Part shown: piece after piece, positions 39,001 through 42,000 of the stretch
Layout: every line of letters begins with the position of its first letter
How positions within the stretch are numbered: the first letter of the stretch is position 1
Sequence record: NZ_KX832927.1
From: a plasmid
DNA length: 64,000 nucleotides
Strand: one strand, 5' to 3'
Made by a program: the position numbers

Positions 39001-42000
39001 TTTCGGAATACTGACCGGATGGTTTCGACATAAGGCTGGCTCTGTTCCCAGGTCTCAGCCTTGGTATTGGCAAAAGCACCAGTGATACCTACACCACCAT
39101 CGAGCTTGAGAAAGACTTCTCTGGGCGGAATACGACGGGGAACCATCGTCAGGCTGAGAGCTTGGGCTTCCGAGCCTTTTTCAGTAATGAACATAGTCAC
39201 CGGATACTGCTTATCCGTGGCGACATAGACCACATTCTCTTTGATGCAGACCTCACCACACTGGCCGTTATCCGTCGCCCCGGTCAGAGATGTTGAAACG
39301 ATCTCAGGATTGCTGAAAGGCGTGACGATTCGGTTCGGATGACCAACGGCTATCGGGATGATCTGGTTAACCCCCGGCTTCATCGTCAGTAAGGGGTTTT
39401 CATTCATGCTGCCCACAACCTCATGGGAGCTTTGTCCTGACGTCACAGGGGCAGGAACATCCTTTTTCATAACACTGGCCGGGACAACAGGAATGTCATC
39501 CGAGGCATAGGCCATTGAAGTTCCAAGCGCCAAGGACAGCGCCAGGAGCGAAAGTTTAGCGTTGTTCTTCATGCTTTCTCCGGTTTTCTTCTTTGCGCTG
39601 GAGTTGCTCCAAAACAGTTTTGGTGCGTGGCTTTCCTACATAGGTGTCGATGTAGTCCAGCACGGGCGCGTAGTTTGAAATCTTGATGGCGAACTCGTAG
39701 GAGCGTTCGCTACGCTCTTCGTTAGAAGAAGCCCCTTTGACGTAGGAATATCCGTAGACAAACACCTTGTCGCTCTTGGGCTCGTACTCAACAAAACGCG
39801 GCTCAAACCGCATGGTTACGCGGTCGTTCTTGATCTGTTGAGCTTGAATTTCGATGGCATCAATCACGTCCTGATAGATGCTCGGGGAGAGAAGCGGGGT
39901 GATCCGTTCTTTCACAAAGTCAACGGTTCCTGGCGTCACATTGCCAAGGAGCTGAGCAAAAGCGAAACCCCAAGCCTCTTTATAGGACTGAGAGGCGTTA
40001 TTTTTCGTCACCCAGGCTTCTTCCGTGAGCGTGAAAGGCTGGATAGTGACGATGGTTTCCTTGCTGAATACTTGGACCACCAGCAGGAAAACGATAGCAA
40101 TAAGACCACCCTGGAAGATTCGTCCCCACTTATTTTCTGTTTGGGTCCCTTCCCAGGTCTTGAGATACTTTTTCAGGTTCAAGGCAAATACCTCCGGACA
40201 AACGGATTCTTGAGAGATTTGGCCTTGGTCATGATGAACCCGGCCCAGTAGATCATGTGGAGCAGGTATCCATCCGGATGGTTATCCCTGAATCGGCGAT
40301 AAAGGTTGGTTACAAGTAACCCCCCAGAAAGCAGATCAGGGCCTTACCGATGATGACCCCTATCGTTAGCCCCAAAAGCATCGGGGCCAACTCATCTGCG
40401 CTCCACAACAGCAGATGCGGGGGCTCATCGACCCGGCGCGGTATCTTTACAGGCTTCATAGCAACCCTCTTCTTTTCCTAGTGGCCTGTATTCTCATTCA
40501 GGGTCACTGATTTTCTGCCACGGCTTCGCGCCCTTTTCGGGCACTTCCAGCGACAAATAAAAAAAGGCGGCCTAAGCCGCCTTTTTTGCGTTTACTGGAT
40601 CGGTTATTGATTTTGAGGAACCGCTTCCGAATGTTTTTCCGAAGCCGCAACGCTAACTTCATTGGCTGGTCGGGCCACCCCCAGAGTTTTCACTTCCTTG
40701 TTAGCATTGGCTTTAAACTTGAACATCAGACTGTACGCCGCCAGCAGGAAGAAGCTGAGAATGCCCCAGTAGGTCTGAACCGTGCCCAGAGCCTTGGCCG
40801 GGTCACTTGCAGCTCTGTTGGCCGTATCAGCAGCCAACTTAACCCACTGACTCCAGTCAAAACCTGCCGCAAAAGCAGACAGCCAAAACGCGACGGCCAC
40901 TGGAACGATGAAGATGCACATCAGCACCGCGTTCATCAAAAACCAGAAAAATTGTTTATTAAGGTTCACACTTCCTCCCATTAACCTAGAAAATTGAATG
41001 CGTGTTCCAGGTTCATCCCTGCAACAACACCTATAACGAACATCACCTGCCAGACAAGGAACTGCCAGGAGATGAATGAACCAGATGAGCTTTCTCTGAC
41101 GTGAGCTTGTGCGGACATAGACCCTCCAAATAACTTGTCGTCATCACGGAGTAATCGTCTCTTAATTGATCAATCTAGGAACAGTGCTGTTACGGCCCAT
41201 TTTGGGCACTTTATGGAGGTTTATTCGAGGAGATGATAAGAGCGGGAGGCGAAAAACTTTCACATGTGAAAGTTCAAAGCGGCCAATGGCCGCTTGTTTC
41301 ACACTGTTCTATTGTAACGGAGTTCTCGATAAGCATCCCATGCTTGCTCTGATGAGACACCTCGACAACCAACATCTGTGGCGCACTCAAGGTCCATCTT
41401 GTACTGCTTAACCTTCTGGTCTGCTGTATCGCCCCAGCTCATGGCTGATGGGTACTTGGAAACACTAAACACATTTTCAAGTTCAGCCTGATAGTCGTCG
41501 TTTTGTAACAGAGGTTCGGTTTCACCATCATCCCAGCGAATGTAAGCCTTACCCTGGAGAGCCTTCAAATGCAAAGGCACCAGTAAGGTGGAAATCACTT
41601 CGTCAGCCCTGATGTCTTTGTAAGCACACCAGTGAGGTTTAACGGTGATCACACCATTTACCAAAACGATGTCACACGCCAGTGTCGCTTCAACATTATC
41701 GTTAACATCCTGCCGAGCGTAGATCTCCACGAAACCAACCTGCTCTGGAACAACCTTGTCGATGAAGCTCCAAAAGCTGGGGTACGACGTTCCATCGCTG
41801 AGCGTCAACTGACCGTCATGCTCTTTCAGCATACGGTTCAGTTGTGCAGTGAAGAACTCTGCCGACACTTTTCTTGCCAATGGTTCCATATCACTCAGTC
41901 GTAGAGTGGCTCCTGCCCCCCCCTCATACACCTCTCCAAAAAAGAAATCTCTCTTACGCATTAGACTTTGCCTCCTTTAATCGCTTGCTGGGTCAGCTTG

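What the first reader, a model, noticed from the sequence alone, without database searches (positions are those of the whole stretch)
40179..40459. traL is split by a -1 frameshift in a C6 homopolymer: either a pseudogene or a slippage-prone switch in an essential pilus gene
Seen in the sequence: the TraL-like reading frame (MKPVKIPRRVDEPPHLLLWSADELAPMLLGLTIGVIIGKALICFLGG...) stops after 49 codons. The remainder of a typical ~93-aa TraL (…LLVTNLYRRF…YWAGFIMTKAKSL…) continues in another frame and ends exactly at the TGA that overlaps the traE start. A single extra C in the run 40320-40325 restores the full protein. TraL is required for F-type pilus assembly, so as written the element would be transfer-defective. 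Alternatives are a homopolymer sequencing error or reversible slipped-strand variation.
Basis: seen in the sequence. Interest (0 to 1): 0.6.

Follow-up and report, generated by a model that had tools for sequence, protein, structure and literature searches.

The report
One-base homopolymer gap splitting plasmid traL
The pilus-assembly gene traL of this IncC resistance plasmid is recorded one base short in a run of seven C's; this is most likely a long-read sequencing miscall, or failing that an ordinary one-off mutation, and not a built-in genetic switch.

Summary
traL lies on the minus strand. It starts at ATG 40459 and stops after 49 codons. The other 46 codons continue in the -1 frame to the TGA that overlaps the traE start. 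One extra base in the C6 run (40320-40325; G6 on the coding strand) restores a full 93-aa TraL.

The element is an IncC (IncA/C2) plasmid backbone. In the plasmid collection the run is C7, with traL intact, in about 98% of roughly 890 relatives. C6 occurs in 17 records and C8 in none. C6 turns up on at least three separate backbone lineages. Four of the seven named type-1 C6 records also lack one base in the traB C7 run. Noisy contigs with C6 carry several other one-base homopolymer deletions.

One C6 record, pYDC637, was published as conjugative. Short-read contigs carrying this window's own private markers are identical to the window except that they have G7. The run is not conserved in more distant TraL genes, and no frameshift-stimulating RNA structure follows it.

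Verdict: most likely a homopolymer undercall (about 0.6). Otherwise it is a sporadic null mutation (about 0.3). A phase-variation switch or programmed recoding is unsupported (0.06 or less together). Interest is low.

The parts
40310..40459 (-). traL as written: ATG at 40459, 49 codons, premature TAA at 40312-40310. The first 47 residues are the genuine TraL N-terminus.
   Evidence: Pfam PF07178 covers positions 1-44 of 90; TIGR02762 scores 29.4 bits, just below its cut-off.
40320..40325 (-). Homopolymer run: C6 on the plus strand, G6 on the coding strand (codons 46-48, CUG GGG GGU). It is C7 in about 98% of related plasmids.
40179..40319 (-). Remainder of traL in the -1 frame (LLVTNLYRRF...RRYLP, 46 codons plus TGA at 40181-40179).
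   Evidence: The restored 93-aa protein gives a full-length TraL profile match and is identical to the common IncC TraL.
39556..40182 (-). traE (208 aa, PF05309). Its TTG start overlaps the traL TGA as TTGA, which suggests translational coupling with full-length traL.
   Evidence: The same 4-nt overlap is annotated in NZ_CP010373.2.
40556..40590 (.). G+C-rich hairpin flanked by A and T runs (terminator-like) between the upstream ORF and traL. It marks the 5' boundary of the traL transcription unit.
   Evidence: Read from the sequence. Only weak sub-threshold Rfam matches to sRNA terminator regions.

Best explanation
This is the ordinary traL gene of an IncC (IncA/C2) conjugative plasmid. TraL is the small inner-membrane VirB3-like pilus-assembly protein of F-type type IV secretion systems. 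It heads the traL-traE-traK-traB-traV-traA operon. Its normal state has a G7 run on the coding strand and encodes a 93-aa protein.

In this window the run is recorded as G6. The most likely cause is that a long-read consensus, of the PacBio RS II / HGAP type, under-called the homopolymer by one base. On this reading the real plasmid has an intact traL and nothing special happens here.

Shown: the split, its repair by one base, the consensus state of the run, the deletion-only pattern, the co-occurrence with other contractions, and the G7 state in short-read contigs of the same lineage.

Inferred: that this particular record comes from an unpolished long-read assembly, and that its own molecule carries G7.
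For: 1. Consensus state. Searching with 80-nt sequences that carry the C6 run, C6 is found in 9 records with type-1 flanks and 8 with type-2 flanks. The remaining ~870 of about 890 IncC records match only with one or two differences; those sampled have C7 and an annotated intact traL. None of 111 RefSeq E. coli complete genomes carrying this region has C6.

2. Contractions only. No record has C8 among 889 searched with type-1 flanks. Nine deletions out of nine has P = 0.002 under a 1:1 ratio and 0.026 under 2:1.

3. Independent recurrence. C6 appears on at least three backbone lineages, in Klebsiella, Salmonella, Aeromonas, Shewanella, Vibrio, Pantoea, Citrobacter and E. coli.

4. Signature of assembly quality.
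- Four of the seven named type-1 C6 records (CP027695, CP018457, CP009868, CP032414) also have the traB C7 run contracted to C6. Two of them also have the intergenic C8 run contracted. The hypergeometric P is about 1e-6.
- LC521852 (traL C6) and LC521853 (contracted intergenic run) have consecutive accession numbers.
- Logan contigs with C6 carry further one-base homopolymer deletions in traB, traK, traE and a neighbouring ORF.

5. Sequencing platform and phenotype of other C6 records.
- CP012682 (C6) is a PacBio-only HGAP/Quiver assembly (PMC4972780).
- pYDC637 / KP056256 has C6 with all other tra genes intact. It was published as a 'conjugative IncA/C plasmid' (title of Lee, Li and Doi 2015, as cited in PMC7652850 and PMC5403052).

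6. This window's own lineage.
- Its private markers are the IS1 at 24466-25233, the 14.6-kb insertion after traN, and the 45-aa ORF variant at 40981-41118.
- Short-read Logan contigs from SRR4191388 and SRR4191392 carry these markers and are 100% identical to window 13807-25234.
- The SRR4191396 contig is identical to window 37982-44118 except that it has G7 and a 93-aa TraL. Twenty further similar places were not shown.

7. Likely source. The 14.6-kb repeat, tet(B) and the IncA/C2 Tra1 region fit the Providencia rettgeri elements of PMC5554438. Those were finished from PacBio RS II P6-C4 / HGAP3 data with no short-read polishing described.
Against: - The window is otherwise clean. Against its closest relative NZ_CP010373.2 there is only this one indel and 3 mismatches over about 50 kb. 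The other three G/C runs of 7 or more (C7 at 37740-37746, C8 at 41916-41923 and at 48941-48948) are full length. So this is not a generally noisy assembly.
- The two C7 runs in tra genes are contracted more often than the two C8 runs: traL 1.9%, traB about 1.5%, intergenic C8 0.7%, run B about 0.3%. traL against the intergenic C8 gives P = 0.025. A pure length-dependent error model does not predict this.
- The window's plasmid already carries an IS1 inside the traW-traU operon. Relaxed selection on transfer, and therefore a real second hit, is plausible.
- The source record and its reads could not be identified with certainty. The accession KX832927 is not in the collections.
- The G7 short-read contig comes from a sister sample. 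It was not shown to be the same isolate.
Confidence: 0.62

Rival explanations
1. The deletion is real. Replication slippage in the G7 run removed one base in this isolate's plasmid, making traL a null allele with a 49-aa product. No pilus is made, and self-transfer is lost unless another system or a revertant supplies TraL. On this reading it is an isolate-private, non-adaptive or weakly selected loss-of-transfer mutation, not a regulated switch.
For: - The window has no other homopolymer indel in about 50 kb, including two C8 runs.
- An IS1 with a 9-bp target duplication already interrupts the traW-EAL-traU-traN operon, so transfer may already be compromised and traL under relaxed selection.
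- traL C6 is somewhat more frequent than contraction of a neutral intergenic C8 run (17/889 against 7/971, P = 0.025). That would fit some selection for loss of transfer.
- Several C6 records are clean apart from traL: CP028419, CP012682 and BDMQ01000004 over 6 kb, and KP056256, whose other tra genes are annotated intact.
Against: - Short-read contigs with the same lineage markers have G7.
- No +1 variants exist.
- There is strong co-occurrence with other contractions in other records.
- A C6 plasmid, pYDC637, was reported as conjugative.
- The likely source is an unpolished PacBio RS II assembly.
Confidence: 0.31
2. The G7 tract is a contingency locus. Reversible slipped-strand mispairing between G7 and G6 turns conjugative pilus production on and off within a population, for example to avoid pilus-specific phages or the cost of transfer. 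The window captured the OFF phase.
For: - A frame-setting G run of 7 sits in an essential pilus gene.
- The OFF length recurs independently in about 2% of records.
- Some short-read contigs end exactly at the run, which could reflect mixed G6/G7 populations.
- SXT-like Vibrio traL genes have a different G7 run at nt 214.
Against: - The tract is not conserved. A relative with 96% amino-acid identity has GGT GGG, and in 18 of the 20 homologues the first Gly is replaced by Ile, Ala or Leu.
- Only contractions are seen, never C8.
- Contractions track assembly quality and also hit the traB run and an intergenic run.
- Seven bases is at the low end for efficient phase variation (general knowledge of contingency loci).
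- No revertant or mixed-read data are available.
Confidence: 0.04
3. The G6 allele is expressed by recoding. Either the ribosome slips -1 on the heptamer G GGG GGU, or RNA polymerase adds a G in the run. Either event would yield exactly the wild-type 93-aa TraL at a low level.
For: - The zero-frame context is a formal X XXY YYZ heptamer.
- A zero-frame stop follows three codons later.
- A -1 shift there, or one extra G in the mRNA, gives ...FLGGLLVTN..., identical to the wild-type protein (inference).
- pYDC637 (C6) was reported as conjugative.
Against: - There is no stimulatory structure. The 95 nt downstream fold no better than shuffles (z = +0.35).
- No Rfam frameshift element is found.
- About 98% of relatives, and all distant homologues, are simply in frame. 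The arrangement is therefore not conserved, which is the hallmark of programmed recoding.
- G-only heptamers and 6-nt G runs are not known to be efficient slippery sites in enterobacteria (general knowledge).
Confidence: 0.02

Closest known systems
TraL of IncC / IncA/C2 plasmids (for example WP_000805625.1 in NZ_CP010373.2; Pfam PF07178, TIGR02762; the VirB3-like protein of MPF-F type IV secretion systems)
   Same: The restored protein is 100% identical to the common IncC TraL. Operon position and the 4-nt overlap with traE are the same. The flanking DNA is identical to NZ_CP010373.2 apart from this one base over about 18.7 kb.
   Different: The window has one G fewer in the G7 run, so the reading frame breaks after codon 47 and stops at codon 50.
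Residual homopolymer deletions in long-read consensus assemblies (gene-fragmenting errors, as treated in PMC12007338 and PMC8011154)
   Same: It is a single-base deletion in a G/C homopolymer. Only contractions are seen. It recurs across unrelated assemblies and travels with other homopolymer contractions in the same records.
   Different: In this window it is the only such event in about 50 kb, and the reads could not be inspected.
Phase-variable contingency genes with poly-G/C tracts (Neisseria, Haemophilus and Campylobacter type)
   Same: A coding-region poly-G tract whose length sets the reading frame of a surface-structure gene.
   Different: The tract is short (7) and not conserved in close relatives. 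No expansions are seen, and the length variation is not independent of assembly quality.

Membership tests
TraL (PF07178 / TIGR02762), F-type T4SS pilus-assembly protein | Full-length match to the family profile above the curated cut-off | tested here: met
   Restored 93-aa protein: PF07178 86.4 bits (cut-off 24.4), profile positions 1-89 of 90; TIGR02762 50.5 bits (cut-off 30.95). As written, the 49-aa product covers only profile positions 1-44 and falls below the TIGR cut-off.
TraL (PF07178 / TIGR02762), F-type T4SS pilus-assembly protein | First gene of a traL-traE-traK-traB-traV-traA cluster | tested here: met
   traE (PF05309) and traK follow directly. The annotated order in NZ_CP010373.2 is identical, and the neighbours in 10 other loci agree.
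TraL (PF07178 / TIGR02762), F-type T4SS pilus-assembly protein | Product of about 90-100 aa; no naturally short (~49 aa) members | tested here: met
   Twenty homologues at 55-100% identity are all 92-93 aa. The 49-aa form is seen on 43 contigs, against at least 1000 for the intact form.
Long-read homopolymer undercall (assembly artefact) | One-base deletion in a G/C homopolymer relative to the consensus of near-identical relatives, with a bias to deletions | tested here: met
   C7 reads as C6. There are 17 C6 records and no C8 record.
Long-read homopolymer undercall (assembly artefact) | Co-occurrence with other homopolymer contractions in the same assembly | tested here: inconclusive
   Met for other C6 records: 4 of 7 also have traB C6, and the noisy Logan contigs carry several. 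Not met in this window, which has no other indel in about 50 kb.
Long-read homopolymer undercall (assembly artefact) | Short-read data for the same molecule show the full-length run | tested here: inconclusive
   Short-read contigs with the same IS1 site, the same 14.6-kb insertion and the same 45-aa ORF variant have G7.
Phase-variable contingency locus (slipped-strand mispairing) | Tract maintained or conserved in related elements | tested here: not met
   Only the IncC-identical copy has G7. The relative at 96% identity has GGT GGG, and the others lack the Gly-Gly pair.
Phase-variable contingency locus (slipped-strand mispairing) | Length changes in both directions, independent of sequencing quality | tested here: not met
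   No C8 record. C6 tracks other contractions in the same records.
Phase-variable contingency locus (slipped-strand mispairing) | Measured high-frequency reversible ON/OFF switching | not testable with these tools
   Needs fluctuation or mating assays, or deep amplicon sequencing.
Programmed -1 ribosomal frameshift | Slippery heptamer X XXY YYZ in the zero frame | tested here: met
   G GGG GGU at 40326-40320 on the minus strand. This is a formal match only.
Programmed -1 ribosomal frameshift | Downstream stimulatory structure, and conservation of the two-frame arrangement in homologues | tested here: not met
   Fold z = +0.35. No Rfam element. Relatives are in frame.

The most novel reading that the evidence does not exclude
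The G7 tract of IncC traL might act as a low-frequency, mostly one-way mutational OFF switch for pilus production. It would recur in natural populations, and part of the roughly 2% of C6 records, and of the short-read contigs that break at the run, would reflect real G6/G7 mixtures. Such a switch could matter for escape from pilus-specific phages or for the cost of carrying the plasmid.
Probability: 0.04. Interest if true: 0.5.

Novelty: not a real feature. Interest (0 to 1): 0.08.

Why it matters
The practical point is curation. Taken at face value, the frameshift labels a major multidrug-resistance plasmid backbone as non-conjugative. The same one-base gap sits in about 2% of deposited IncC plasmids, including at least one published as conjugative, so transferability predicted from such records is unreliable. 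If the deletion were real, it would be one more ordinary loss-of-transfer mutation. Only a demonstrated reversible switch would be of wider interest, and the evidence here does not point that way.

Tried and rejected
- **Finding the source record.** Megablast of windows 28000-52000, 1-25000 and 19500-20300 against the plasmid collection found no record with the window's traN/14.6-kb-element junction. KX832927 is not held. The source is therefore only inferred from PMC5554438.
- **Finding this lineage in short-read data.** An exact look-up of the truncated EAL ORF from its GTG start found nothing. The ATG-start version did.
- **Programmed frameshifting.** The downstream fold is no better than shuffles and Rfam has nothing. 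Rejected.
- **Conserved mutable tract.** Rejected after reading codons 44-52 in 20 homologues.
- **Literature on a traL frameshift in IncC.** Nothing relevant was found.
- **Primary paper on pYDC637 (PMC4468717).** Not held. Only its title, as cited elsewhere, could be used.
- **SRA run numbers.** The supplement of PMC5554438 is not held, and searches for the SRR accessions found nothing.
- **Is traL specially enriched for contraction?** Against traB it is not significant (P = 0.42). Against the intergenic C8 run the enrichment is mild (P = 0.025). This is too weak to support selection.

Full report
**1. Observation**

The region was read on both strands and translated in all three minus-strand frames.

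- traL is on the minus strand. ATG is at 40459, and frame 0 gives 49 codons ending ...ICFLGGYL, followed by TAA at 40312-40310.
- The -1 frame continues ...GGLLVTNLYRRFRDNHPDGYLLHMIYWAGFIMTKAKSLKNPFVRRYLP and stops at TGA 40181-40179.
- That stop overlaps the TTG start of traE (39556-40182) as TTGA.
- The run at 40320-40325 is C6 on the plus strand, so G6 in the mRNA (CUG GGG GGU UAC).
- One added base yields a 93-aa protein. It matches Pfam TraL over positions 1-89 of 90 (86 bits) and TIGR02762 above its cut-off. The 49-aa product covers only the first half of the profile.

**2. What the element is**

Megablast of 39500-41000 hits 952 plasmid records, nearly all typed as conjugative and spread across Klebsiella, Salmonella, Escherichia, Vibrio, Providencia and others. 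The closest relative, NZ_CP010373.2, is typed IncC / MOBH / MPF_F.

- That record carries the same traL-traE-traK-traB-traV-traA order, with traL annotated as an intact 282-nt gene.
- Against it, the window shows one indel (this one) and three mismatches over about 50 kb of shared backbone.
- Differences outside the finding are a 14.6-kb insertion at 5263-19872, an IS1 at 24466-25233, and a rearranged Tn10/tet(B) region.

**3. How common the short run is**

Queries of 80-82 nt carrying each exact variant were run against the plasmid collection.

| Run and variant | Records |
|---|---|
| traL C6, type-1 flank | 9 |
| traL C6, type-2 flank | 8 |
| traL C8, type-1 flank | 0 of 889 |

- Almost all remaining records match these queries with one or two differences. 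Those sampled have C7 and an annotated intact traL.
- None of the 111 RefSeq complete E. coli genomes that carry the region has C6.
- At the protein level, the exact 49-aa product is on 43 contigs. The intact 93-aa product is on at least 1000, which is the counting cap.
- C6 sits on at least three backbone lineages distinguished by 36-54 SNPs per 6 kb, so it arose, or was miscalled, many times independently.

**4. Is the traL run special? Controls at other runs**

The window has only three other G/C runs of 7 or more. Each was searched in its contracted form.

| Run | Location | Contracted in |
|---|---|---|
| traB C7 | 37740-37746 | 5 records |
| Intergenic C8 (mobH side) | 48941-48948 | 7 of 971 |
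| C8 in the 220-aa ORF | 41916-41923 | 1 record |

- The contracted records overlap heavily. CP027695, CP018457, CP009868 and CP032414 have both traL C6 and traB C6. CP018457 and CP032414 also have the intergenic contraction. The chance of that overlap is about 1e-6.
- LC521852 (traL C6) and LC521853 (intergenic contraction) have consecutive accession numbers.
- Logan contigs carrying C6 show additional one-base homopolymer deletions (G7 to G6, G5 to G4, T6 to T5, A5 to A4) that split traB, traK, traE and a neighbouring ORF.

Together, these results are the signature of homopolymer under-calling at the assembly level, not of traL-specific biology. The results are: contractions only, across several runs, clustered in particular records, and also affecting a non-coding run.

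One residual oddity remains. The two C7 runs in tra genes are contracted more often than the two C8 runs (traL against the intergenic C8, P = 0.025). This leaves room for some of the C6 alleles being real.

**5. Evidence from published records**

- CP012682 (C6) was assembled from PacBio P5-C3 reads with HGAP/Quiver only (PMC4972780).
- KP056256 (pYDC637) has C6. traL is missing from its CDS table, while every other tra gene in a 24-kb stretch is intact. The plasmid was nevertheless published as 'conjugative' (title of Lee, Li and Doi 2015, as cited in PMC7652850 and PMC5403052). The primary paper is not held, so this rests on the title alone.

**6. The window's own lineage**

The window has three private markers: the IS1 insertion site, the 14.6-kb element 16 bp downstream of the traN stop, and a 45-aa variant of a small ORF (loss of one GAAAGC hexamer, 40981-41118).

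- Exact-protein look-ups found these markers in short-read-style Logan contigs of one run series.
- SRR4191388 and SRR4191392 contigs are 100% identical to window 13807-25234, across IS1, the EAL gene, traU, traN and the insertion.
- A 27,624-nt SRR4191396 contig is identical to window 37982-44118 except that it has G7 and a 93-aa TraL. Twenty more similar places were not shown.
- By arithmetic, that contig spans about 25204-52827. It therefore ends 30 nt inside the same IS1, which is what a k = 31 graph would give. This step is inference.

The lineage therefore normally has G7.

The 14.6-kb repeat, tet(B) and the IncA/C2 'Tra1' region match the description of the Providencia rettgeri elements p16Pre36-NDM and the RB151 island in PMC5554438. 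Those were finished from PacBio RS II P6-C4 / HGAP3 data checked only against PacBio subreads. The 27 isolates and transconjugants of that study were sequenced on MiSeq. That the window comes from one of these records is inferred, not shown; KX832927 is not in the collections.

**7. Tests of the more interesting readings**

*Contingency locus.*
- The tract is not conserved. Among 20 homologues, only the IncC-identical copy has G7.
- A Photorhabdus copy at 96% amino-acid identity has GGT GGG. In the other 18 the first Gly is replaced by Ile, Ala or Leu.
- All of them are 92-93 aa, so a 49-aa TraL is not a natural form.

*Programmed -1 frameshifting.*
- G GGG GGU is a formal slippery heptamer, and a -1 slip, or one extra G in the transcript, would regenerate the exact wild-type protein.
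- However, the downstream 95 nt fold no better than shuffles (z = +0.35).
- Rfam finds nothing relevant.
- Relatives are simply in frame.

**8. Counter-evidence kept in view**

- The window is clean apart from this base.
- It already has an IS1 inside the traW-traU operon. That insertion could be polar on traU and traN, and it makes a real second hit in transfer genes more plausible.
- Some short-read contigs, both Logan and NCBI draft assemblies, end exactly at this G run. The cause could be Illumina error after a G run or real G6/G7 mixtures; this was not resolved.

**9. Verdict**

| Reading | Confidence |
|---|---|
| Homopolymer undercall in a long-read assembly | about 0.62 |
| Genuine, isolate-private one-base deletion making traL a null allele | about 0.31 |
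| Phase-variable switch | about 0.04 |
| Recoding (ribosomal or transcriptional slippage) | about 0.02 |

Under any of the likely readings this is the well-known IncC traL gene with a trivial lesion. Interest is low. The practical lesson is that roughly 2% of deposited IncC plasmids carry the same gap, and transferability should not be inferred from it.

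Noticed in passing
window 5263-19872: A 14.6-kb insertion relative to NZ_CP010373.2, placed 16 bp downstream of the traN stop. It encodes a tyrosine-recombinase trio annotated elsewhere as GmtY/GmtX ('gamma-mobile-trio'), a VPA1269-family protein, a helicase-like ATPase, an integron integrase and an erythromycin esterase. It is 99.9-100% identical to a segment of Providencia plasmids (CP096303 and others). Its length equals the '14.6-kb direct repeats' reported to flank the RB151 island in PMC5554438. 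No plasmid record in the collection has this traN junction.
   Followed up: partly
window 24466-25233: A complete IS1 (768 bp, with insA and insB on the minus strand and 23-nt terminal inverted repeats). It has a 9-bp target duplication GGAAAGCCG (24457-24465 and 25234-25242). It is inserted about 13 nt (four codons) into the EAL-domain gene, between traW (TrbC family) and traU. It may be polar on traU and traN, so the element could be transfer-impaired regardless of traL.
   Followed up: partly
window 40981-41118 (minus strand): A small ORF just upstream of the traL region is 45 aa here and 47 aa in most IncC plasmids, because one copy of a tandem GAAAGC hexamer is missing. The variant is rare (NZ_CP010373.2, CP077964.1, ABQURR010000020.1 and one SRA run series) and served as a lineage marker.
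   Followed up: partly
window 41916-41923 (C8) within ORF 41299-41961 (minus strand): A G8 run near the 5' end of a conserved 220-aa hypothetical gene. Type-2 backbones have GGGGAGTGGAGG at this position, and some type-1 backbones have GGGGGGTG. The run is contracted to 7 in CP077964.1, and one G shorter in two noisy Logan contigs; in all three the called ORF shrinks to 196 aa.
   Followed up: partly
window 48941-48948: A C8 run in the intergenic region between the MobH relaxase gene and the divergent 205-aa gene, which is probably the oriT/mobI area. It is contracted to C7 in 7 of 971 plasmid records. This gives a baseline for length miscalls or mutations at a non-coding run.
   Followed up: partly
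L016-L018 (Vibrio mytili, V. albus, V. sinensis), traL nt 214-220: These Vibrio traL genes (85% amino-acid identity) lack the IncC run but have a different G7 run at the W-G-G codons near residue 72. A second, independent frame-setting G7 in the same small gene is probably chance, but it was not examined.
   Followed up: no
L041-L045 (contig ends); corresponds to window 40320-40326: Several short-read contigs (Logan ERR7569818, SRR24788998, SRR6039203; NCBI AAGXBZ010000034.1, DAJWRG010000052.1) terminate exactly in or at the end of the traL G run. They produce 'partial TraL' proteins of 45-47 aa. This indicates a fork in the assembly graph at this run in some Illumina data sets. The cause was not resolved.
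   Followed up: partly
window 52751-64000: The Tn10-derived tet(B)/tetR/tetC region with IS10/ISVsa5 copies is arranged differently from NZ_CP010373.2: one IS copy and adjacent genes are missing, and the IS copies are 97-99% identical to one another.
   Followed up: no
CP018457.1 and NZ_CP032414.1 (Shewanella algae, 132.5 kb): Two near-identical plasmids from separate records share all three contractions: traL C6, traB C6 and the intergenic C7. Either the same systematic error was made twice, or this is a truly decayed, transfer-dead lineage, for example after passage through a mismatch-repair-deficient host.
   Followed up: no
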